Assembly: GCF_963921235.1 (NCBI RefSeq) | Contig: NC_086108.1 | Coordinates: 6,076,001 to 6,140,000, forward strand | Origin: Mobula hypostoma | Lineage: Eukaryota | Length of the DNA: 64,000 nucleotides | Direction of reading: 5' to 3' | Shown: piece after piece, positions 1,475 through 56,139 of the stretch | Position numbering within the stretch: position 1 is the first letter of the stretch | Layout: the number at the start of each line of letters is the position of its first letter | Made by a program: the position numbers and the translations under genes | Notes under the pieces: generated by a model | What the model saw: the letters and a program-made list of their open reading frames with translations, nothing else | The model's database searches: none | What the model was told of the DNA's origin: nothing

Positions 1475-1710
1475 CAGTGGTCCCCAACTTCGGGCCGCGA
1501 AGGGTGCAGCGGTAGCCGGAACGCACCCAGCACATCTTTAAGAAAAAAGCCGAAATAAACAAGCTAATTGATTAGGTGCCGCCTGGCATGTAAATATCGG
1601 CCCAGATTGTGATTAATTAGCTTGTTTATTTTGGCTTTTTTCTTAAAAATGTGCTGGGTGCGTTCCGGCTACCACTGCATTCTTCGCGGCCCGGAGTTTG
1701 GGGACCACTG
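1475..1710. mobile_element. hAT-type MITE with ~95-bp inverted arms
   Basis: Termini CAGTGGTCCCCAA...TTGGGGACCACTG and long near-perfect inverted arms; the 8-bp TSD is degenerate. Confidence 0.75.
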
Positions 1711-2485
1711 GTCTATAGAATCAAAATCAGATTTAATATCACCGGCACATGTTCTGAAATTTGTTATGCAGCAGCAGTACAACGCCATACATAATACGGT
1801 ACCTTTATTATAATTTACAGTTTGTGTGTTTGTGCATGCACCCTCGGTGGCGCTGACTGAGTTCACAACTTTCTGCAGCTTATTTCAATCCCGTGCAGCA
1901 GTTACCCCCCCACACCCCCATACCAGACAGTGATGCAGCCAGTTAAGATGCTCTCCTTGGTATATCTGTAGAAAATTGCCAGTCATTCAGCAAAGAAACA
2001 GGATCTTTGGCCAACCAGTCCACTCCAAGCAAGATTCCCATTGAAACTATTTCTTTCTGACCTCTTTTGACCAATGTCCGTTTAAACCTTTCCTATCCAT
2101 ATACCTGTTGAAATAGCTTTTAAATATTATTGCTAAATCTGCCTCTACCATCTCTCCTGGCAGCTTATTGTATATATAGACAGAGGAAGCTGTCCCCCAG
2201 GTTCATATTAAATCTCTCCCTCACACCTTAAACCTATACCCTCTAGTTCTCAGATGAAGGGTCTCAACCCGAAACGTTGTCTGTCCATTTCTCTCCATAT
2301 TTGATGCCTAGTGTGTAGAGTTCCTCAGTACTGTGAGTGTTGCTCCAGACTCCAGCAACTTCTACCACCTGATTCTCCCACCCTGTCAAATAAAACTGGG
2401 CGCATCCATCATATCTGTGCCCCTCGTGATCTTGTTTAGATATACAGCACAAAACAGGCCCTTCCAACACAAGGTGCCATGCTGC

Positions 2486-17625: not shown

Positions 17626-20350
17626 TAAATTTTATTACCAAAGTACATGTATGTCACCACATAGAGCCCTGAGATTCTTTCTCCTGTGGGCATACTCAGC
17701 AAATCTATAGAATAGTAACTGTAAAGAGGATCAATGAAAGATAAAGTAGAACATAGAAGACGACAAACTGTGCAACTACAAATATAAGTAAATAGCAATA
17801 AATAACAAGAACATCAGATAGTGAAATAAAGAGTCCTTAAACTGAGATCTTTGGTTATGGGAATATCTTAATGATGGGGCAAGTGAGTGTAGTTAATCCA
17901 CTTTTATTCAAGAGCCAGAAGGTTGAGGAGTAGTAACTATTCTTGAACCTGATGGTGTGAGTCCTGAGGTGCTTGTACCTTCTACCTGATGGCAGCTGCG
18001 GGAAAAGAACAAGCATGGGTGGTGAGGATTTCTGATGATGGATGCTGTTTCGCTATGACAGCATTTCACGTAGAGGGCTTTACCTGTGATATACTGGGCT
18101 TAATCCACTACCAAACAGTTCAGGAATATAAAGCAGAAGTGGAGAGGGTGAGCACTTTCAAGTTCCCGGGTGTCAACATCTCTGAGGATCTATCCTGGGC
18201 CCAACATATCGATGCAGTTACAAATAAAGCATGATAGCGGCTTTATTGAGGAGATTTGGTATGTCACCAAAGACATACACAAATTTCTGCAGATGTGCAG
18301 TGGAGAGCTCCACCATGGCTCCACCATGGGAGGCCAGTTTCCTCTGCACTTCCTGGTCTCTCGTTTGTATCACTCGTATTCACTAGTTCATTCTCTGTTT
18401 CATTTTTATGTATCCTCTTCACAATCTTCCCCTTCAATGTACGTGTGAGAAATAAAGATAATCTCGATTGTTTAGTTATGGTTAAATTGGAGGTTGACAG
18501 GTTATTGATTAGTCAGGGCGTGAAAAGTTACAGGAGAAAGCAGGATAAAGTGGTTGAGAGGGATAATAAATCAGCCGTGATGTAATGTAAAGCTAACTTG
18601 ATGGGCTGATTGGCCTTATTCTGCACTGATGTCAAATACTGTTTTATTTCAGCTTCCTCTCCCTTAGCTTAATTGTAGTCAATGGGATATAAAGAGGCGA
18701 TGCAAATATAAATTACTACTGTATTTCTTTTACAGCACTGTCTTTCCTGTTTTCTTCTCTTTACTGCTCTTTCTCCTTTATATTCAAAGATTCATTTATT
18801 GTCAGAGTATGTATGCGGTATACAATTCTGAAATTCTTCTCCTCTGGATGGCCACGAATCAAAGTAAACCTTGGAAGTCATTCAAAGAGAAATAGCAACC
18901 CCTCCCCCCCCCCAACCGCACAACAAGCACAGCAACACAATCATTAACTCCCAAAGCCCCCTTCACTGCACAATATGTCAGAAGTATACTGGACCCCAAA
19001 TATCCCTCTTCCCGCATGAAAAGATAAACAAAATCTCAACAAGGACATTTTGCCTTAAATCCCTTCTCCCTGCACATAAAGAAACCAAGAAAGAACAGGC
19101 AGAAACATGGAGTATAAAACTCTGTAAGACTGAAAAAAGTCCATAGGCCAAACTCATATCTATATCCATATCAATAAACGCAAAAAGCCTCAGTGACCTC
19201 CTCTGGGCACAGCGACAGTGATATATTTTACCACAGCCACCCCTTTCTCCTACTCACTACTATCTTCTGGGTTAGTGCTGAGTGGTGTTTGTCCATTGAT
19301 GACTGGAGATCTGTATGAGAGAGTTCTATAAACTGGGAAAGCTGTTGCACTGGGGCAGTTCTACTCTCAACTTTGGAAGTCGGGGTCCAGTGGCATGAAC
19401 AAGTGTCACAAACTGGGGTCTTCCTTGGTTGCAGTGGATGACCATGATGTCTTCTGTGCCTTGTCATGCCTTTTGCTCTGCACAGACCATTACAGAATGG
19501 CCTTCCTGGTTGTTGGACCTCACTGTAGATCTCATCCACCCAGTCCACTTGAGCTGTCTTCACATGCGAGGACAGGCACATCCCTATTCCATCGGGGTAT
19601 GAGTTCCGCCGGCTACCCTAACCTGCTTTAGCCCGTCTGTTGAAGGGGTGTACCAGGTGCAGCCGCTGTCGCATGCAAACAGCTACTTGGAGCCACAGGT
19701 GAGAGCAGAGTGTGCGGTGGGGACCACAAGTGAGTGAGCTGCCCCAGATTGGACAGGGTAAGCCCCTTCACCAGAGGTGCTATCCATCCCTGGCTATCCA
19801 TACAACCCAGTAGTGAAAAGGCTCCACCAAAATGAAGCAATATTAAATGCTCAAATACGAGCTGAGTTTCACCTTAGTTATATCACTTGTAAGTGCCGTG
19901 GCATGGTTTTCTAATAAGCAGTTTCTATTACAGGAATATATATATATAATGTATATTTTTTTTATATCTAAATTCATGTAAAATTGAAGAGGGAAGATTA
20001 TTGTTATTTGTTAAATGTATATTGAGACATACAGTGAAATATGTTTATGTCGATGACCAACATAGTCCAAATATGTGCTGGAGGCAGCCCACAAGTGTCG
20101 CCATGCTTCTGGCGCCAATATAGCACACCCACATCTTACTAACTCTAACCTGTACAGCTTTGAAATGTGGGAGGAAACCCACGTGGTCAACGTACAAACT
20201 CCATGTGCTGGGTGGCGATGACATTACATGCCCCCTGTTGTAACTATGAACAAAGTCACTGGAAAAGACACTGAAGCTTGTGGATATGGAAGCCTTTATT
20301 CTCGCAAACCGAGTATGCAGGCATCATATTTGAGAAGCTCATGAAAGAAG

Positions 20351-20557
20351 AGCAACACTCACAACACGCTGGAGGAACTCAGCAGGTTGGGCAGTATCCG
20401 TGGAAAAGATCGGTCGACGTTTCGGGCCGGAACCCTTCGACAGGTTCCGGCCCGAAACGTCGACCGATCTTTTCCACAGATGCTGCCCAACCTGCTGAGT
20501 TCCTCCAGCGTGTTGTGAGTGTTGCTTTGACCTCAGCATCTGCAGATTATTTTGTGT
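20351..20557. mobile_element. Short palindromic Penelope-derived insertion
   Basis: 84-bp inverted arms (20351-20434 and 20443-20526, 2 mismatches), ~30-bp 3' extension, direct repeat TCATGAAAGAAGAG at 20339-20352 and 20558-20571. Confidence 0.8.
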
Positions 20558-21120
20558 TCATGAAAGAAGAGACCTCTTCGACTCAATATTACATGGCATT
20601 TTTATATGCTAAAGAACAAAGGTAACAGCAGTTCTATAGTTACAATGTGTCTACAATGCTTCCTTTCAATTACATACAGTTTTCAAACACCTTCGACCCT
20701 CACTCCAGACACCCAAAATGACTTTAGGCTGCATTCATGTAGATGCAGGCACCTGAGGTCCAAGTGGAATGTTCCTTTGTTTGTGATTGAGCCCAACCTG
20801 AAGCTCCAGGAAGCCCATTATTCTGAGCTGTTTTAAATTCAATCTGCAATCCACATTCAAATCTGAAAATTGGTTGCTAGTGAAATTAATATTTGCTATA
20901 TACCCTAACAGCAGAATACACCCTAACACCCACAACTCACTAACCCTAACCTGGACGTCATTGAAATGTAGGAGGAAACCCATGTGGTCAACGTAGAAAC
21001 TCCTTACAGACAGCAGCAGGAATTGCTGGCGCTGTGAAGCATTACGCTAACTGTGCCAAATAGCCTAGATTTTATTACTGAGTTGTTGTGTGAAATCAGT
21101 TTTTGTTTTTGTCCTTGTAG

Positions 21121-23656: not shown

Positions 23657-23755
23657 AACCCTTGATCCAAATAAATAAACAAATACACAGCAGAGCTTTG
23701 CCTGATGCAGGAAAAGCTCTGCTGTGTATTTGTTTATTTATTTGGATCAAGGGTT
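23657..23755. repeat. Near-perfect 99-bp palindrome
   Basis: 43-bp perfect arm, 1 mismatch, CCTG/CAGG stem and a 3-nt loop (ATG). Confidence 0.9.
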
Positions 23756-31500: not shown

Positions 31501-33234
31501 ATGGATGGTAGGGATATGGAGGGGTATGGTTTTGGTGCAGATGGATGGGAGTAGGCAGATTAAATGGTTTTGGCATGGACTAGATGGGTTGAAAGGCCTG
31601 TTTCTGTGCTATACTTCTATATAAATCTAATCTCCATTATTGTTTCATCCTCCTGATGGGAACCTGAGACAAGCTGACACTCTCTGAGACACAGGTCTCC
31701 AGGCTCTCCCATTTTCAACTTCCTGCACGATCTGAAGAGAACTGCGATATCTGAGCAGTGTATCTCTGGTTCAGCAGACAAGTTTGCACCTTTAACAATT
31801 CTTCTGCTGGCGAATGATCTGTGCATACACTGCATCACTGCACACACAGATGAGCCATCTTGTGCCGGGGGAGTGTGGGGGTGCATCCCTATTCATGTGC
31901 AGAACAGGTATCTACTGCCATGTCACAGTCCCTTTGCTCCTGGAGGACCACAATTTGCTCATGGGAGCATCCCTGTCCACCAAGAGCAGCAAATGCGCTT
32001 CTGCTCAATGATTCCTAACAACATCTAGCTACTACTGTGTGACCAAGGTCAGAGATCTAGTTTGACCAACAGAGACAGGAGGACAGTGGTCTCCACAGGA
32101 GCTGTTACCATACATGAGAGTGCGCACACAATGTCCAGAGTGAAGGGGGTGAGCAGGGCTCCACAGACTCTCCATAGGGTGCAGCAAGATACACTCTTCC
32201 ACCCTCCTTTCTATCTCCTGAATTCTATCAACTGGCCTGATGGAGATCTCACCAACTCAGTATGCTTCGCCAATCAGTTTCTGCAAGAAAACATCTCAAG
32301 TGGCCCTCAGCTGAAGCTCTGTTGTAATGTGTGTGATACGCACCGCAAGCCCATCAAATGTGCAAAGGTCTCGATAGTGAATGTCATGAGGATGTTTCCT
32401 ATGGTGGGGAAGTTTAAGACTAGAGGGTACAGCCTCAGAATAGTAGGACATCTGAAAGAATGGAAATGAGGTGGAATTTCTTCAAACAGTGGTGAATCTG
32501 TGAAATTCGTGGAGGCCAAGTCATTAGGTATACAGTATTTAAGGTAGAGATGGATAGATTCTGGATTAGTCAAGGCATGAGGGGTATGGGGAGGAGATAG
32601 GAGCTGAGAAGGAAATGGATCAGCCATGTTGAAATGGTGCAGACTTAACAGGCCAAGAGGCCTAATTCTACTCCTATATCTTATGGTCTATTTCACCACC
32701 ACCCAGGTTCCCAAACTTAGCTGACTATCCTGTCTCCACTTCCACACATATTCTCTGGCTTCAAGCACCCAGATATTCAGCTGAGCTCCAAACCAAATGG
32801 TCTTCTGAAGATGGGAGTCAAACCTCTTCAGTATTAGAGCTTCACTCACTAGGTATATGACAAAGAATCCCACTCTTATCTGAAGTAATGACAACTTGAC
32901 TTCCAGCTGCAGAGGCATCAGAGGAATTGAACCAAAGGGTTAAAAAATGTGAATTATGCTTCCAGTAGTAATATAGGACTGCCTATGGACTCCAGCTCTG
33001 GATTTTTGAGGGAGGGGGTGTTTGCTCACAAAGGCTTCCCCATGAGTGGGTATAGCTGCAGGGCAGCAGGGGTTTGAGGTTAAGTGTTTTTCTTCTCCCA
33101 GATGAGTTGCCAACCACAACTGATGAGCCCCATCTGCCCAAAATGTTTGTATATTTTTGTTGCGTATATTTACAATTAATAATGACTGTTAAACATGTAG
33201 TAATTGTGGATAATAATAAACATGAGAGATTCTG

Positions 33235-33610
33235 TAAATGCTCGAAATCCAAAGCAATACATAGAACATGCTGGAGGAGCTCAGCATGTCACATAGCAGA
33301 TATGGAAATGAATAAACAGCCATCATTTCAGAAGAGGGAAGACAGTAGAATGAGTAGTTGGAGGGGAAGGAGGAGAGGTAGAAAGTGATAGGTGAAGTCA
33401 GGTGGGTAGAAAAGATAAAGGGCCGGGAGAGGAAGGAATCTGATAGGAGAAGAGAGTGGACAATGGGAGAAAAGGAAGGTTGAAAGCTACCCAGATGGAA
33501 AATAAGCTGCTTCTCCACCCTGAGGGTTGTCTCACCTTGACATGAAGTGGCCGTGGACTGACATGTTGGACTACAGTGAGAATGAGTAAATGGGAAATAA
33601 CCACATTTAG
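33235..33610 (-). mobile_element. Old Penelope-like 3' fragment
   Basis: ETTLRVEKQLIFHLGSFQP on the minus strand resembles EATLRLEEQHLIFRLGSLQP at 45540-45605. Confidence 0.65.
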
Positions 33611-37645: not shown

Positions 37646-39189
37646 AAAGTTCTATTTTAACTTCATCAGTCCACAGGACTTGTTTCCAAAATGCATCAGG
37701 CTTGTTTAGGTGTTCCTTTGAATCTTTTGAATAGAACTTTTGCCACAATGAGCAGAAGTATGTTTGGAGGAAAAGGGGTGCAGAATTTCAAGAACCCTTC
37801 TCCAACTGTTGAGCATGGGGGTGGATCGATCATGCTTTGGGTTTGTGTTGCAGCCAGTGGCACAGGGAACATTTCACTGGTAGAGGAAAGAATGAATTCA
37901 ATTAAATACCAGCAAATTCTGGAAGCAAACATCGCACCATCTGTAAAAAAGCGGAAGATAAAAAGAGGATGGCTTCTACAACAGGATAATGAACCTAAAC
38001 ACACCTCAAAATTCACAATGGACTACCTCAAGAGGTGCAAGCTGAAGGTTTTGCCATGGCCCCCACAGTCCCCTGACCTAGACATCATTGAGAATCTGTG
38101 GATAGACCTCAAAAGAGCAGTGCACACAAGACGGCCCAAGAATCTCACAGAACGAGAAGCCTTTTGCAAGGAAGAATGGGCAAAAATCTCCCAAAAATTT
38201 GAAAGTCTCTTAGCTGGCTACAAAAAGCACTTACAAGCTGTGATATTTGCCAAAGGGGGTGTTACTAAGTACTGACCATGCAGGGTGCGCAAACTTTTGC
38301 TTTGGGTCATTTTCCTTTTTCGTTATTGTAAGAGGTTTCTTCTTTTACGTTACTGCGTAGGCTAATCAAAATGGCTTCTTTGTTATGTTAACTGCTGAGA
38401 AAGTTTTCTCTTTAGCAGCTTGTTTGAGTTATAAAGAGAATTGTATTTGTTTGCTAACCAATTGGGATAGATGTTATTCTTTCTTGTGTGTCTGTAAGCT
38501 ATCGTGTTGCACGGGCTTTGGGGCAGAAGGCACAATGGAGACAGAGAGGGGAAATGCGATGCTGTAAGTTGGCCGACGGGACGAACCCCAAGTGGGAGTC
38601 CGAGACCCAGGACGTTCGGCGAGGAAAGGAGACAAAGACAGACTCGTGTGGAGCGTCTGGTTGACCACCGTGGTTGGTCCCAGGCAGTAGGCCGAGGTGG
38701 TCAGAGGGGATCGAATGGTGGAAATAGGACCCCGTTAATTGAGCTCCAACTGTTGTGCACGAAATGGTTGAACTTTGATAAGTTTGGCGCCTTTTACTTT
38801 CCTTTCATATTTTATCTCTATTAATTACATAGTTCCAGTAATATCTATAAATTGTAATCATTTAATCGCATATGGTGTATTGTCTGTTATTTGGCGGGGT
38901 GGGGTACATCACACAGCATCCACACAAACTTGATTACCCAGTCTGGCGGGGCCGAAGGCTGCTTCCCCTAAATGAAAGTGAGTTGAGCGAGCCTGAGGCT
39001 TACCAAGGGGCTACATCATTTTGAAACTATAAAAGATGGAAATAAAAAAAAGTTTTCTTGCTTAACATATTAAAGAAATGTGTCATTTTTAACTTTATGC
39101 CTTTTGGAAATCAGGAAATCTTTTACTCGCTTAGCTATTCACAGTAACAGAAATTTTGACCGGGGTACCCAAACTTTTGCATGCCACTG
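37646..39189 (+). mobile_element. 5'-truncated Tc1 (IR/DR-type) transposon with the C-terminal half of the transposase
   Basis: PTVEHGGGSIMLW...QQDNEPKHT...WPPQSPDLDIIENLW...GGVTKY*; repeated CAAACTTTTGC DRs; end ...GCCACTG followed by TA. Confidence 0.9.
38327..39015. mobile_element. Solo LTR inserted in the Tc1 right inverted repeat
   Basis: TGTA...TACA termini, flanks TTAT/TCAT (4-bp TSD with 1 mismatch), 689 bp; Tc1 sequence resumes after it. Confidence 0.75.
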
Positions 39190-40481: not shown

Positions 40482-41151
40482 CTAAACACAGAAACACGTT
40501 CAGACATGGTTATGATCAAAAATTATGTCAGATGCACAAAGCAGAAAGTATCTCAACACATTAAAAAAATGACTGATGACGTTATACGTCCCAGAAACGA
40601 TGTACTGCAGTGGCTGATGTGGTATTGATCCTCGGAGCACAGAATGTAATACATTTGTGGTCTGAAACCTGATCTTGTTGGATCGGTAATAATAGTATTA
40701 TTATAATATTAATATAGTAATATTATTATTACTGTTTAAAATTTTTTCTCAGCTCAAGCTGGTAACGCCTGACATACAGGGATAGACAAGCACGTTCATT
40801 TCTCAGTTGCTAGGAGATTTCGGACTATTCAGGTGGTGTTTAGTATTGTGGCTTTCTGGTGATTTACATGAATATTGCTGTGTAGGATTAATTGTTTAAT
40901 GCTATTGTGTAGTGACTGGGATGATACCAGCTGTAGATATTACTATTGGGACAATGTATACTCTGTTCATGTTCCATTGTCTTTCAATTTCCTCTTTTAA
41001 TTCAGTGTTTTTCTGTATGTTATGTGTGTTTAGAATCCAATAAGTTGTGCTTGTTTATCCTGTATTATTATATTATTATTTATAGAGCACATTTCATACA
41101 GGCGATGTAGCTCAGAGTGCTTTACAATGGGTTAAAGTGGAGACCATAATA

Positions 41152-42765
41152 CAGTTGAAGTCAGAAGTTTACATACACCTTAGCCAAATACATTTAAACT
41201 CAGTTTTTCACAATTCCTGACATTTAATCCTAGAAAACATTCCCTGTCTTAGGTCAGTTAGGATCACGATTTTAAGAATGTGAACTGTCAGAATAATAGT
41301 AGAGAGAATGATTTATTTCAGCTTTTATTTCTTTCATCACTTTCCCAGTGGGTCAGAAGTTTACATACACTTTGTTAGTATTTGGTAGCATTGCCTTTAA
41401 ATTGTTTAACTTGGGTAGCCTTCCACAAGCTCTCACAGTAAGTTGCTGGAATTTTCTTCCATTCCTCCAGAGAGAACTGGTGTAACTGAGTCAGGTTTGT
41501 AGGCCTCCTTGCTCGCACACACTTTTTCAGTTCTGCCCACAAATTTTCTATCGGATTGAGGTCAGTGCTGTGTGATGGCCACTCCAATACCTTGACTTTG
41601 TTGTCCTTAAGTAATTTTGCCACAACTTTGGAGGTATGCTTGGGGTCATTGTCCATTTGGAAGACCCATTTGTGACTGAGCTTTAACTTTCTGGCTGATG
41701 TCTTGAGATGTTGTTTCAGAATATCCACATAATTTTCCCTCCTCATGATGCCATCTATTTTGTGAAGTGCACCAGTCCCTCCTGCAGCAAAGCATCCCCA
41801 CAACATGATGCTGCCACCCCCATGCTTCACTGTTGGGTTGATGTTCTTGGGCTTGCAAGCCTCACCCTTTTTCCTCCAAACATAATGATAGTCATTCTGA
41901 CCAAACAGTTCAATTTTTGTTTCATCAGACCAGAGGACATTTCTCCAAAAAGTAAGATCTTTGTCCCCATGTGCACTTGCAAACTGTAGTCTGGCTTTTT
42001 TATGGCGGTTTTGGAGTAGTGGCTTCTTCCTTGCTGAGCAGCCTTTCAGGTTATGTCGATATAAGACTTGTTTTACTCTGGATATAGATACTTGTCTGTC
42101 TGTTTCCTCCAGTATCTTCACAAGGTCCTTTGCTGTTGTTCTGGGATTGATTTGCACTTTTCCCGCCAAAGTACGTTCATCTCTAGAAGACAGAATGCGT
42201 CTTCTTCCTGAGTGTTATGATGGGTGCATGGTCCCATGGTGTTTATACTTGCATACTATTGTTTGTACAGATGAATGTGGTACCTTCAGGCGTTTGGAAA
42301 TTGCTCCCAAGGATGAACCAGACTTGACATCATTTTCTGACCTCAATCCAATAGAAAATTTGTGGGCAGAACTGAAAAAGCGTGTACGAGCAAGGAGGCC
42401 TACAAACCTGCTTCAGTTACACCAGTTCTGTCCTGAGGAATGGAACAAAATTCCAGCAACTTATTGTGAGAAGCTTGTGGAAGACTACCCAAAATGTTTG
42501 ACCCAAGTTAAACAATTTAAAGGCAGTGCTACCAAATACTAACAAAGTGTATGTAAACTTCTGACCCACTGGGAAAGTGATGAAAGAAATAAAAGCTGAA
42601 ATAAATCATTCTCTCTACTATTATTCTGACATTTCACATTCTTAAAATAGTGATCCTAACTGACCTAAGACAGGGAATGTTTTCTGGGATTAAATGTCAG
42701 GAATTGTGAAGAACTGAATTTAAATGTATTTGGCTCAGGTGTATGTAAACTTATGACTTCAACTG
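41152..42765 (-). mobile_element. Sleeping Beauty-like Tc1 transposon, rearranged (two right ends)
   Basis: TA-CAGTTGAAGTCAGAAGTTTACATACAC terminus and its complement at 42765, followed by TA; minus ORF 41375-42169 with WSDETK, DNDPKH and NPIENLW (DD34E). Confidence 0.95.
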
Positions 42766-44142
42766 TATATAGGAGCAGAATTAGGCGACTTGGCCCATCG
42801 AGTCTGCTCTGCCATTTCATCATGGCTGATCCGTTTTCCCTCTCAGCCCCAATATCCGGTCTCCTTCCCATATCCCTTTATGCCCTGACCAATCAAGAAC
42901 CTATCTACCTCTGCCTTAAATATACCCAATGACTTGGCCTCCACAGCTGCCTGTGCCAACGAATTCCACAGATTTATGACTCTCTGGCTAAAGAAAGTCC
43001 TCCTCACCTTTGAAAATGGACGTCCTCTATTCTGACTGAGGCTGTGTCCTCTGGTCCTAGACTCCCCCACCATGGGAAATATCCTCTCCACATCCACTCT
43101 GTCAAGGCCTTCCAACACGCAAATAAAATTAAATATAAAAATAAAAGATAAATAGGTGTTAGTTAAAAGCAAGGTTAAATAAATAGGTTTTGACCTGGCA
43201 TTTAAAAATGTCAACTGAATCTACATCATTATAGTTTCAAGTATTGAGATCCACAATTTAGGAGCGTAGTTCAAAAAAAAACAGACCTGCCAATTTATTT
43301 TTTGGGAGAAATTTGTTTAACTTTAAGAGACTGGCAGAAGACGACCTGAGATCATGGCCTCAGGATACAAGGTCATCACTTTAGAACAGAGATGAGGAAG
43401 AAATAAGAGGGGACTTCATTGAAACCTATTGAATATTGAAAGACTCAGATCAGGGGTTCCCACCCTGGGGTCTACAGACCCCTTGGTTAATGGTAGGAGT
43501 CCATGGCATAAAAACGGTTGGGAACCCCTGGCCTAGATAGAGTGGACATGGAGAGGATTAGGGCTAGAGGACACAGTCTCAGAATACAAGGATGTCCCTT
43601 TAGAACAGAAATGAGGAGGAATTTCTTTAGCCAGAGGGTGGGAATCTGTGAAATTCATCACCATAGGTGGCTGTGGTGACCAAGTCATTGGGTACATTTA
43701 AAGTGGAGGTCGACAGGTTGTTGCTTAGTCAAGTTGTCAACGATTACAGGGGGAGGCAGAAGAATATAGATGAGTAGGGATAATAAATGGCCTGACTCTA
43801 CTTCAAGTTCTTGTGCTCTTTTTAGTGCATTATATATTAATACTTTAAAGCCCTACTATTTACTGTGTACCCCAATATAATGGTGATTATTCCACTTCTT
43901 GGAGTGTATGGGATATCCAGGGAGGGGTAGCACCTCCAGTTATGGAATTTGTCATGTCCATTCCGGGCTAGCTCATTCACCTTTGGCCCCCACTCTGCTC
44001 TCTGCTGTGGCTCCAAATAACTGTCTTTATGCGACAGCAGCCACACCCCAGTACACCACTTCAACAGGCTGACTAAAGTCAAATAATGTCAAATAAGTTA
44101 CAAATAATACAAATAAAACATAATATTGATCTTGCCTCTGAC

Positions 44143-44343
<201 letters not shown>

Positions 44344-44885
44344 TTAAGCAAATTTTGTTTCACACATTTCATTTACCAACATTTCCCAACTTGTCATATT
44401 GGTCAATATCGTCTGATTTTACAATCAATAGTCAGTTTATTAGGTACACCTGCTCATTAGTGCAAATTTAGGATGACGAGAGAGCCAATTTGAGACTGTA
44501 AACGTCTGTAAGGAGTTTGTACGTGTGTCTCACGCCGCATCTTCACAGGCAAGCACAGGATCACACAGACAACCGGAAGGGTTAAGTAAAACTAGGAATT
44601 TTATTAATAAACTAATCAGTTGAATTTACAAGGTCTTGGATAACTCAGCCAAAACTCCACTAGGCAGGGATCAAGACAACGGAGACCTGAGAGGATAGCA
44701 CTACCCCTTTAAATACATTCCAGTGCACAAAAGAATCTGTGCCCAGCTGATAAAACACCAGACTAATTACAGGGTTAACCAGTAACTATTCTAATAAGAG
44801 ACAAAAGTCCAAGGATACTTAAGCAACACACATCAGAGTTGCTGGTGAACGCAGCAGCCCAAGCAGCATCTCTAGGAAGAGGTAC

Positions 44886-44921
44886 AGTCAACGTTTCGGG
44901 CCAAGACCCTTCATCAGGACT
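44886..44921 (-). ncRNA. Minimal type I hammerhead ribozyme motif (Penelope-associated)
   Basis: Minus strand reads AGUC-CUGAUGA-A-GGGUCUUGGCCC-GAA-ACGU-U-GACU. Confidence 0.65.
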
Positions 44922-45919
44922 AACTGAAGGAAGAGCTAGTAAGAGATTTTAAATTGGGAGGGGGAGGGGGAGGGGGAGGGGGAGGGGGAGATCCAAAATG
45001 ATAGGAGAAGACAGGAGGGGGAGGGATGGAGCCAGGAGCTGGACAGTTGATTGGCAAAAGGGATATGAGAGGATCATGGGACAGGAGGCCCAGGGAGAAA
45101 GAAAAGGGGGAGGGGGGGAACCCAGAGGATGGGCAAGGGAGGGAGAGGGAGAGGGAGAGGGAGAATGAGTGTATATAAATAAATAATGGATGGGGTACGT
45201 GGGGGAGGTGGGGCACTAGCAGAAGTTTGAGAAGTCAATGTTCATGCCATCAGGTTGGAGCCTACCCAGACGGAATACAAGGTGTTGTTCCTCCAACCTG
45301 AGTGTGGCTTCATCTTTACAGTAGAGGAGGCTGTGGATAGACATATCAGAATGGGAATGGGACGTGGAATTAAAATGTGTGGCCACTGGGAAATCCTGCT
45401 TTCTCTGGCGGACAGAGCGTAGATGGAAGTGGAATTAAAATGTGTGGCCACTGGGAGATCCTGCTCCCAGTGGCCACACATTTTAATTCCACGTCCTATT
45501 CCAATTCTGATAGGTCTATCCACGGCCTCCTCTACTGTAGAGATGAAGCCACACTCAGGTTGGAGGAACAACACCTTATATTCCGTCTGGGTAGCCTCCA
45601 ACCTGATGGCATGAACATTGACTTCTCAAACTTCCGCTAATGCCCCACCTCCCCCTAGTACCCCATCCCTTATTTATTTCTGTACATTCTTTCTCTCTCT
45701 CTCTCCCCCTCCTTTTTCTCCCTCTGTCCCTCCCACTATACCCCTTGCCCATCCTCTGGGTTCCCCCCACTTCTCCTTCTCCCTGGGCCTCCTGTCCCAT
45801 GATCCTCTCATATCCCTTTTGCCAATCACCTGTCCAGCTCTTGGCTCCATCCCTCCCCCTCCTGTCTTCTCCTATCATTTTGGATCTCCCCTCCCACTTT
45901 CAAATCTCTTCTTTCAGTT

Positions 45920-45955
45920 AGTCCTGATGAAGGGTCCCGGCCCGAAACGTTGACT
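45920..45955 (+). ncRNA. Minimal type I hammerhead ribozyme motif (Penelope-associated)
   Basis: AGUC-CUGAUGA-A-GGGUCCCGGCCC-GAA-ACGU-U-GACU: stem I AGUC/GACU, stem II GGG/CCC, palindromic ACGU in place of stem III. Confidence 0.65.
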
Positions 45956-47004
45956 GTACCTCTTCCTAGAGATGCTACCTGGCCTGCTGCATTCACCAGC
46001 AACTTTGATGTGCGTTGCTTGAATTTCTAGCGTCTGCAGATTTCCTCGTCCAAGGATACTTAATTGGACACCTGAAAAGTCTTGAAGAATTAATTGGAAG
46101 TATCCAAGGACAATTGCAACTTAACTGTAAATTGGGGAAGGTCTAACAACACAAAAACCCCGAAGTGCGTTAATTCAGATAATTATAATTAATAAAACAC
46201 AGAATATAAGAAAAAACTCAGACCACTCAAAAAAGTCTACCAATGACCCATGGTTGTGAGAGTGTGGGTTTCCTCTGCATCCTCTGGTTTCTCCCACATC
46301 CCAAAGACATACAGGGTAGAAGGACAATTGGTCACATGGGTGTAACAGTAGTTGGGCCAGAATGGCCTGTTACCATGTTGTATCTAAATAAGCTACGTAT
46401 GCGCAGTAGGCCCCCCCCCCCAGCCCATATGAGATGGTGATGCAGTCGGTCAGAATGCTTTCCATAGTACATTGTAGAAATTTGTGAGTGCCTTTGGTGA
46501 CATACCAAATCTCCTCAAAATCCTAATGAAATATAGCCTCTGCCTGGTCTTCTTTGTAGCTGCATCATGTTACGTCCTCAGAGCTACTGAAGGAAGTTGA
46601 AATTGCTCACTCCTTCCACTTCCAATAGCTCTGAAAATAGGTTTGTGTTCCCTCGTCTTACCCTTTATGAAGTCCACAGTCAGTTCTTTGGTCTTACTAA
46701 TGTTGAGTACGACACCACTCAATTAGCTGGTATATCTCTCTCCATTGCACCCTCTCGTCACCATCTGAGATTCTGCCAACAATGGTTATATATCATCAGC
46801 AGAGTTATAGCTGGTGTCTGAGCTGTCCCTAGCCACACAGTCACAGGTGTAGAGAGAGCAGAGCAGTGGGCTAAGCACATATCACTGTGGTGCGCCAGTC
46901 AGGTGGAGATCTTATTTCCGATCCACACAGATCGTGCTGTTTCGGTTGCAGTGGAAGGTACAGAGGCCTAGATTCTGTAGCTTTTCACTCAGGTAGCTTT
47001 ATCT

Positions 47005-54741: not shown

Positions 54742-56139
54742 CTGACACAAAGCAAGCAAAAATCCACGTTTTAAACAGAAGGGATTATGCAGATGCTAGA
54801 AATTGGAGCAACACATACACACAAACGCAAAGTGCCAGAGGAACTTAGCAAGTCAGGCAGCATCTATGAGGGTAAGTGAGCAGTTGACATTGTTACAACC
54901 TGAGATCCTTCATCAAGGCTGAAAAGGAAGAGGGCAGAGGCCAGAAAATGATGGGGGGGGGGGAGGGAGGGAAGGAGTACATTTTAACACCCTTCAGACG
55001 ATTTTCAACTTTAATTCAATTCATGCCTGCCTGGCACCTTTTTTTTTTTTATTTTATTAAGATTCAACGCAGAATCGGTCCTTCTGGTCCTTCAAGCTAC
55101 ACCGCCCTGCAATGCCTTATCACAGGACAATTTACAATGGCCTATGAACCTACCAACCAGAACACCTTTGAACTGTGGGAGGAAACCAGAGCACCCAGAG
55201 GAGACCCATACAGTCATGGGGATAACTTCCTGACAGGTGCGGTGGGAATTGATCCTGGGTCACCTGTATTGTGAAGCGTTGTGCTAACCACTACACTAAG
55301 GTGCCACCCTAATGCTATCGTGCTCTATAATAGGCAAATGTTTGCAATACCAGTTCCCAAAGAAACAGATAATCATGGAAGCTTTTAGGAAGCTTGGCAG
55401 CATCCATGTCAAAGGACTGTTGAGACAAAATGCCAGATTCTTTTTCTAAAGGCACTGAGAACATAAGGCATTTTCATTTCTTACTTTAGATTTCTAGCAG
55501 TTGTATAGTTTTCATCGAAAAAGATAACTTTTTTTGGGCGGCACAGTGGTATAATGCTTTAGAGTACAGGCGACCCGGGTTCAATTCCAGTCGCTGCCCG
55601 GAAGGAGTTTGTATGTTCTCCCTGTGACCGTGTTGGAAACACTGGGTGCTAAAGATTCCTCCTTCATCCCAAAGATTAGGAGGTTCATTGGTCATTGTAA
55701 ATTGTCCCCTGATTGGGCTAGGATTAAATTGGTGGATTGTTGGGTGGTGCCTACTCTTGCTGTATTTCAATCAATCAATAAATTAATTAATAAATACGAC
55801 CACTCTGCAAAATTAACAGAGCAGAACAAGGAGGGATATGGAATTAATGCAGGTAAATGGAATTAGTATAGACAGGCACAGTGGCCAACAGGGCTGAAGG
55901 GCCTATTTCTATGTTTTTCAACTCTGATCTAACTTACCAATTAAGAAAAGTCGGGTGCCATGATAGTGTAGTGGTTATTGCGATGTTATTACAGCTTAGG
56001 ATGTTCCAAAGTTCGTAGTTCAATTCCAGTGCTGCCTGCAAGGAGTTTGTACATTCTCCCCATGACCGCATGGGTTTCCCCCGGGTGCTCTGGTTTTCCC
56101 CAACGGCCCAAAGGTCAATTGGTCATTGAAAATCGTTCT

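What the first reader, a model, noticed from the sequence alone, without database searches (positions are those of the whole stretch)
44807..46063. 1.2-kb palindromic Penelope-like insertion with a hammerhead core on each strand
Seen: two inverted arms of a GIY-YIG 3' end, a ~27-bp one-sided extension, a 16-bp TSD, and CUGAUGA...GAAAC cores at 45920-45955 (+) and 44886-44921 (-). Stem III is reduced to a self-complementary ACGU, with a GUU cleavage triplet. Established: Penelope-like elements carry minimal hammerheads thought to act as dimers, and often form inverted pLTR structures. Inference: transcription in either direction gives one ribozyme core inside a ~550-bp dsRNA hairpin that could sequester it or feed siRNA and ADAR pathways. 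The minus copy is in the sense orientation of the CYP2 intron.
Basis: partly seen in the sequence, partly recalled or inferred. Interest (0 to 1): 0.7.

Follow-up and report, generated by a model that had tools for sequence, protein, structure and literature searches.

The report
Mirror-image Penelope retroelement stump, stingray
This is an ordinary, decayed head-to-head insertion of a very common jumping gene, carrying its usual tiny ribozyme motif in each half, inside an intron of a broken cytochrome P450 gene of a stingray-like fish; the ribozyme is probably silent here.

Summary
In detail: 16-bp TSD, two ~94%-identical inverted arms, a 27-29-nt one-sided tail and a minimal hammerhead core on each strand, far above chance. 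It is a 5'-truncated head-to-head insertion of a very high-copy, probably Neptune-type Penelope-like element (PLE) in a stingray-like genome. Inverted pLTR + tail + TSD, minimal hammerheads, opposite-strand hammerhead pairs and siRNA from inverted Penelope copies are all published. A second palindrome of the same build lies 24 kb away, and this scan noted the same kind before in other shark-like genomes. Two corrections lower the interest: the host CYP2 gene is a pseudogene (four lesions in five exons), and both cores carry GUU where 73-88% of family depth reads GUC. Each strand holds one core, predicted 94-99.9% buried in duplex, so cleavage here is unlikely (not tested). Divergent relatives break off at the core's edges, supporting family-level conservation. 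One lead: in both palindromes the apex loop reads as cDNA of the tail-less arm, which hints at two separately primed cDNAs (n=2). Verdict: new member of a known kind, low interest.

The parts
44807..44822 (.). Left target-site duplication (16 bp)
   Evidence: contigs of other copies of the host repeat in X1 and X10 match up to 44822 and stop matching there (table 8, records 6 and 12)
44823..45428 (-). Left arm: tail-less, 5'-truncated PLE end (GIY-YIG C-terminus, 3' region, hammerhead), sense on minus = sense of the CYP2 pre-mRNA
44886..44921 (-). Minimal type-I hammerhead core, GUU triplet, predicted cut between 44890 and 44889
   Evidence: family majority GUC at 44890
45216..45428 (-). ORF remnant, 70 aa plus stop, GIY-YIG C-terminal half
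45429..45463 (-). Re-copied 35-nt piece (direct repeat of part of 45360-45400) forming the left side and the 6-nt loop (45458-45463) of the central hairpin
   Evidence: (D5, I5)
45464..46018 (+). Right arm: 5'-truncated PLE end, sense on plus; ORF remnant 45464-45640
45920..45955 (+). Minimal type-I hammerhead core, GUU triplet, predicted cut 3' of 45951
46019..46047 (+). One-sided 27-29-nt tail; family sequence, not captured flank
   Evidence: 4 other window copies carry a similar tail; loose-end consensus at 44821 in X1 and X9 resembles it (table 7)
46048..46063 (.). Right target-site duplication (16 bp)
44143..44330 (-). Host CYP2 exon 7 with in-frame TGA at 44163-44161; insert lies 477 nt upstream in intron 6 (54600-44331)
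20339..20571 (.). Second palindromic PLE insertion of the same build: 14-bp TSD, tail-less left arm, tailed right arm, apex at the 5' edge of the hammerhead

Best explanation
A single retrotransposition event of an abundant endonuclease-positive PLE (probably Neptune clade) wrote two 5'-truncated copies of the element's 3' end head-to-head into a 16-bp staggered cut. Each arm carries the family's pLTR hammerhead simply because it lies about 100 nt from the element's end. Shown: anatomy, family membership by homology, high copy number, decay of arms and host gene. Inferred: the copy is dead on arrival (no RT, no complete endonuclease) and its ribozyme is inert, because either strand carries only one core (no cis dimer partner), the antisense arm is always transcribed first and pairs with it, and both cores have the minority GUU triplet. 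If the CYP2 pseudogene allele with the insert is transcribed, the hairpin is spliced out with intron 6 and is at most one of very many passive sources of family dsRNA.
For: Anatomy; descriptor control. Nearest proteins are ray PLE ORFs (Mobula, Hypanus; 4 of 11 candidates); P0002/P0003 have YIDD/thumb, a CX4CX2C linker and the GIY-YIG with inner cysteines, the linker marking Neptune/Nematis and not Poseidon (PMC8557442). 130,545 contigs of one DNA run laid on 1.3 kb, summed depth about 7.6 million over the core against 24-55 on exon 7 (not a copy number). Whole-element fold about -1020 kcal/mol; core 94% (+) and 99.9% (-) in long-range pairs, local fold ~0; core-antisense duplex -66/-72 versus double hammerhead -14 kcal/mol. 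Same build at 20339-20571 with a truncated, damaged core. Literature.
Against: No full-length element was recovered, so the clade rests on proteins from other rays. Core sequence is intact at all catalytic positions in both arms while the arms differ by 6% elsewhere (33 mismatches, only 2 in the core, both in loop II), though 36 nt with 2 changes is what 6% predicts. GUU is still a cleavable NUH triplet. Folding is equilibrium prediction, and the anole PLE hammerhead needs its protein to cleave, so trans-assisted cleavage is not excluded.
Confidence: 0.88

Rival explanations
1. One reading: the palindrome is a working dsRNA element in a transcribed CYP2 intron that feeds siRNA/ADAR pathways or gates a ribozyme, with a consequence for the host or the family.
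For: One contig of a run guessed to be RNA (X9 record 25) matches exactly exon 7 (44142-44332), keeps the TGA, differs at 2 letters and goes on as other sequence, as a spliced transcript would: the pseudogene, or a close allele, seems transcribed across intron 6. Inverted Penelope copies give siRNA in Drosophila (PMC3681739 passages).
Against: Host gene has four lesions. Arms have drifted 6% apart with indels and show no homogenisation: at 7 of the 8 listed sites where the left arm departs from the family majority the right arm keeps the majority letter. The family is so abundant that one more hairpin adds little. Whether the X9 individual carries the insert is unknown.
Confidence: 0.07
2. Formation rival A (twin priming): both target nicks were primed separately, one at the tail-less and one at the tailed RT start; the tail-less cDNA jumped back, snapped back on 2 nt and annealed to the second cDNA.
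For: In both palindromes the apex loop plus the next 2 nt read as antisense element on the strand of the tail-less arm (ATCCTG+CT; CTTCGACA+GG, 2 mismatches to the main core), so that strand folded back and could not template the tail. Each arm of the main insert holds family sequence the other lacks. 2-nt overlaps of TSD end and element at both left junctions. Anole PLE protein nicks and extends both strands and starts RT at two sites flanking the tail (PMC11167929).
Against: n=2. Two-base microhomologies arise by chance about 1 in 16. The 65-nt asymmetry could be a later slippage deletion between the direct repeats. Arm identity (94%) does not discriminate.
Confidence: 0.35
3. Formation rival B (published idea): one self-primed hairpin cDNA, with the tail asymmetry made by endonuclease resolution of the intermediate.
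For: Palindromes at inverted junctions were read as self-priming in PMC3846280; tail ascribed to EN-mediated resolution in PMC8557442. Both arms share the GUU variant; the 20-kb arms are 97.6% alike over 84 nt.
Against: Needs the tail clipped from the folding strand and a separate 65-nt loss in the right arm; PMC11167929 maps the tail to two RT starts instead. The shared GUU is a CpG site changed in about a quarter of family depth.
Confidence: 0.4
4. Assembly artefact (false palindrome).
Against: Arms differ at 33 sites with a transition-rich spectrum and by indels, carry a perfect TSD and a one-sided tail; flank pieces with 0 differences exist in run X1.
Confidence: 0.02

Closest known systems
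EN+ Penelope-like element insertions with inverted pLTR, tail and TSD (Arkhipova et al. 2013 PMC3846280; Craig et al. 2021 PMC8557442)
   Same: 5'-truncated copies head-to-head, one-sided ~30-nt tail, TSD around the whole unit, palindrome at the inverted junction, C-terminal GIY-YIG
   Different: TSD 16 bp (8-10 bp in the rotifer examples); tail 27-29 nt (30-40 quoted); no direct-tandem pLTR or RT part retained; ray host
Minimal hammerheads of metazoan PLEs (Cervera and de la Pena 2014, PMC4209133)
   Same: Type I, no helix III loop, palindromic 15.2-16.2, extra nucleotide between 9 and 10.1, G10.1-C11.1, short helix I; opposite-strand pairs 100-700 bp apart already reported
   Different: Stem II 4 bp rather than the 7-8 bp of schistosome motifs; cores ~1 kb apart; GUU instead of family GUC; chondrichthyans not named in the parts read
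Poseidon element of Anolis carolinensis (Frangieh et al. 2024, PMC11167929)
   Same: Hammerhead in pLTR, tail defined by two RT start sites, both strands nicked and extended, AT-rich target
   Different: This family's relatives have the CX4CX2C linker that Poseidon lacks; no activity shown here
Non-LTR retrozymes (bioRxiv 10.64898/2026.07.22.740005)
   Same: PLE-derived, hammerhead-bearing, reported from one chondrichthyan genome
   Different: Retrozymes are head-to-tail tandems that allow dimer cleavage; this is head-to-head with one core per strand

Membership tests
EN+ Penelope-like element | C-terminal GIY-YIG endonuclease of PLE type | tested here: met
   C-terminal 68 aa 88% identical to P0002, which has RT remnant, CCHH-type GIY-YIG and a Pfam GIY-YIG hit below cut-off; met by homology, the GIY and YIG motifs are truncated away in the window
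EN+ Penelope-like element | Telomerase-like RT in the same ORF | tested here: inconclusive
   Absent from this truncated copy; YIDD and thumb present upstream in relatives P0002, P0003, P0005
EN+ Penelope-like element | pLTR in direct or inverted arrangement with one-sided tail and TSD | tested here: met
EN+ Penelope-like element | Hammerhead motif in the pLTR | tested here: met
Neptune clade | CX2-5CxxC linker between RT and C-terminal EN | tested here: inconclusive
   Present in closest relatives P0002, P0003, P0005, region missing in the window copy
Neptune clade | RT phylogeny | not tested
   No named reference RTs were fetched; Nematis not formally excluded
Minimal type-I hammerhead | Core C3-A9, G12-A14, A15.1-U16.1, H17, extra nt after A9, G10.1-C11.1, palindromic 15.2-16.2 | tested here: met
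   against features in PMC4209133
Minimal type-I hammerhead | Conservation of the core beyond flanks across family copies | tested here: inconclusive
   Supportive: top loose-end piles in all 4 runs fall at 44884-44886 and 44919-44921, the two core edges (24 rows shown, 2315 hidden). No per-position test: 248 variant rows hidden; edges coincide with variable linkers
Minimal type-I hammerhead | Self-cleavage as dimer | not testable with these tools
   Bench assay needed; prediction disfavours it in this locus
Non-LTR retrozyme | Head-to-tail tandem units with two or more same-strand hammerheads | tested here: not met
   One descriptor hit per strand in the whole window

The most novel reading that the evidence does not exclude
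Head-to-head PLE palindromes are the footprint of two-ended target-primed reverse transcription: the dimeric RT-endonuclease primes one nick at the tail-less start and the other at the tailed start, and the tail-less cDNA always performs the snap-back that joins them. The apex-loop polarity rule (2 of 2 here) could be scored on thousands of ray copies and would bear on the open question of how PLE inverted pLTRs and tails arise.
Probability: 0.3. Interest if true: 0.45.

Novelty: new member of a known kind. Interest (0 to 1): 0.15.

Why it matters
As a locus it matters little: a dead insert in a pseudogene intron. As a family it is useful material: ray genomes hold very many such units with long TSDs and readable junctions, enough to test by counting alone how PLEs build inverted ends and tails, and whether the hammerhead is under selection in active lineages. 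If the twin-priming reading held, it would link the in vitro two-start, two-strand activity of the anole protein to genomic architecture.

Tried and rejected
Own genome not held, so no genome-wide census. Family copies sought in viral contigs: 0; in metagenome contigs: 7 loci, 0 of 7 similar to the element, treated as chance. Rfam: 8 weak matches, all below gathering, rejected. Isolated core folds no better than shuffles (z -0.26 to 0.17, 4 of 4 sequences), as expected for a motif without helix III; not evidence either way. No RNA holder on record; X9 is only guessed to be RNA. A>G plus T>C places: 26 of 74 in X9 against 50/185, 62/189, 51/177 in the other runs: family-level contigs, uninformative on editing. 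No pile of molecule starts or ends (table 6): contigs cannot show them. Only the left arm and flank (44120-45420) were laid on 4 of 24 listed runs, so the right arm, the empty-site joint and insertion polymorphism stay open. In DNA runs every contig shown at 44163 had CGA, but they carry other differences and look paralogous; the stop is confirmed only by the X9 contig. One identity figure (22/79) was out of register and dropped. Search for shark/ray PLE ribozyme papers returned only unrelated shark papers among 20 listed of 2,100; search for Penelope + twin priming listed 2 papers on other subjects; neither proves absence from print. PMC5785218 is not held. Sequence look-up in earlier findings: nothing.

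Full report
1. Observation. The sequence and repeat search show a perfect 16-bp direct repeat at 44807-44822 and 46048-46063 enclosing nested inverted repeats. Aligning the reverse complement of the left arm to the right arm gives 496 matches and 33 mismatches over 44823-45391 / 45465-46018 (20 transitions, 13 transversions, 5 at CpG) with indels in the low-complexity tracts. A minimal-hammerhead descriptor finds exactly two sites in the window, 45920-45955 (+) and 44921-44886 (-), against 1 hit in 150 Markov control windows. Stem III is the bare palindrome ACGU, the triplet GUU, the cut predicted 3' of 45951.

2. What it is. Both arms begin in the last 58-70 codons of an ORF. The left remnant is 60/68 identical to a Mobula protein; the 4 hits among 11 candidates are all from Mobula and Hypanus. 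Three of these (P0002, P0003, P0005) run upstream into a YIDD/thumb region and a CKRNKC-YTC type linker, and two show VIYCVRCSRCGLLYIGET-like GIY-YIG motifs (Pfam GIY-YIG E 4.6e-4 and 2e-3, below cut-off). Craig et al. (PMC8557442, 12 of 23 passages seen) give the CX2-5CxxC linker as present in Neptune (reduced in Nematis) and absent in Penelope/Poseidon, so Neptune is the likely clade; no tree was built. The family is huge: on the 1.3-kb stretch 130,545, 118,163, 3,952 and 46,123 contigs were laid from four runs of three coded organisms, with summed depth about five orders of magnitude higher on the arm than on the exon (the tool warns this is no copy number). The window itself has five more PLE ends.

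Surroundings. tblastn with ray CYP2 proteins (85-93% identical on exon 7) finds exons 5-9 on the minus strand; the insert lies in the 10.3-kb intron 6, 477 nt from exon 7. The gene is broken: AT at the exon 5 donor, a frameshift in exon 6, TGA in exon 7, a frameshift in exon 9. One contig from a run guessed to be RNA matches 44142-44332, i.e. exon 7 plus the 1-2 letters that spliced neighbours would share, keeps the TGA and differs at 2 letters (record 25; bounds). So the stop seems real and the pseudogene or a close allele seems transcribed and spliced; DNA contigs shown at that place all had CGA but look paralogous.

Internal control. At 20339-20571 a 233-bp unit has the same build: 14-bp TSD, tail-less left arm ending within 1 nt of the same element position, tailed right arm, apex at the 5' edge of the hammerhead, where the left arm keeps a damaged CUGUCGA box without 5' stem I and the right arm starts in stem II. 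The palindromic layout therefore does not depend on an intact ribozyme; it is a product of transposition.

3. How it most likely works. Shown: anatomy, homology, abundance, decay. Inferred: no coding capacity for RT, so it cannot move by itself. For the ribozyme: metazoan minimal hammerheads did not cleave as monomers and only weakly as dimers (PMC4209133, parts 1-2 of 4 read; review passages PMC6765202), and the anole one needed its protein and was dispensable for insertion in vitro (PMC11167929, parts 1-2 of 4 read). Here each strand has a single core, and in a head-to-head unit the antisense arm is transcribed first in either direction. The whole element folds at about -1020 kcal/mol with the core 94% (+) and 99.9% (-) in long-range pairs and essentially no local fold; core-antisense duplex is -66 to -72 kcal/mol versus -14 for a 4-bp-stem double hammerhead. 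Family depth at position 17 reads C in 76, 73, 88 and 74% (X1, X5, X9, X10), so GUC is the consensus and both arms carry a CpG-type change. GUU is listed as cleavable (PMC3138052 passages); that it is slower than GUC is recalled, not sourced here. At family level the core looks conserved: the largest loose-end piles in all four runs lie at 44884-44886 and 44919-44921, the core's two edges, i.e. divergent relatives match the core and leave it on both sides (only 24 of 2,339 rows shown; the edges are also variable linkers). Thus the motif is probably functional in the active element and a passenger here.

Formation. The centre is asymmetric: the left arm reaches 45428, then a 35-nt piece is re-copied (short ATGG-type microhomology at the jump), then a 29-bp stem with loop ATCCTG leads into the right arm. 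In both palindromes the loop and the next two letters read as antisense element on the strand that holds the tail-less arm, and those two letters pair with the stem (CT with AG; GG with CC). The strand that folded back is therefore the tail-less one, which cannot template the tail. Either a second, tailed cDNA was primed at the other nick (fits the two-strand, two-start activity in PMC11167929), or the tail was clipped during resolution of a hairpin intermediate (ideas in PMC3846280, 11 of 11 passages, and PMC8557442). Two cases cannot decide; at 7 of the 8 listed left-arm departures from the family majority the right arm keeps the majority letter, the eighth being the CpG site, which fits either model.

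4. Comparison with what is known. Inverted 5'-truncated copies, one-sided tails, TSDs and junction palindromes are described as typical for PLEs. Dual minimal hammerheads on opposite strands 100-700 bp apart were reported in 2014. siRNAs matching inverted regions of Penelope copies were reported in Drosophila (PMC3681739, 5 passages). PLEs and retrozymes occur in a sampled chondrichthyan (bioRxiv 10.64898/2026.07.22.740005, 8 passages; its supplements are closed). This unit is not a retrozyme (no same-strand tandem). Supplements of PMC4209133 and PMC11167929 were not read and may list shark or ray motifs or inverted insertions. PMC9977147 (6 passages) added nothing; Lunse et al. was seen only as a reference title. 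Earlier notes of this scan describe similar palindromic or hammerhead-headed PLE stumps in other shark-like genomes (unchecked AI notes, not support).

5. Novelty. A new member of a known kind. Neither the anatomy nor the dsRNA consequence is new. The only forward-looking point is the apex-polarity regularity; my one search for Penelope with twin priming listed two papers on other subjects, which does not prove it unpublished.

6. Verdict. Observation confirmed; interpretation partly supported; locus-specific function unlikely. Interest 0.15; novel case probability 0.3, interest if true 0.45.

Noticed in passing
window 56971-33688 (minus): CYP2 gene exons 5-9 with four lesions: exon 5 donor reads AT instead of GT, frameshift in exon 6, TGA in exon 7, frameshift in exon 9 after the heme cysteine (the two frameshifts are in homopolymers and could be assembly errors). 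A spliced-looking contig keeps the TGA, so it may be a transcribed pseudogene.
   Followed up: partly
window 20339-20571: Second palindromic PLE insertion, 14-bp TSD, apex at the 5' edge of the hammerhead, GUC triplet, related subfamily.
   Followed up: yes
window 2244-2344, 1378-1469, 33219-33560, 54774-54932: Four more decayed PLE 3' ends, most with tail; the one at 54774-54932 ends about 35 nt upstream of the CYP2 exon 6 acceptor, sense to the gene.
   Followed up: partly
window 1475-1710: 238-bp palindromic element with CAGTGG-type ends (MITE-like; label recalled), directly after a PLE tail.
   Followed up: no
window 23657-23755: 99-bp near-perfect palindrome of unknown family.
   Followed up: no
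window 44520-44822: The target flank is itself a moderately repeated element (summed depth 160-470 versus 24-55 on exon 7 in X1); family not identified.
   Followed up: partly
window 37661-38272 and 41149-42768: Tc1-like transposase remnants, including an inverted 432-bp duplication (41149-41565 / 42337-42768, 92%); many CR1/L2/L1-like RT fragments elsewhere (labels from recalled motifs, not from a library search).
   Followed up: no
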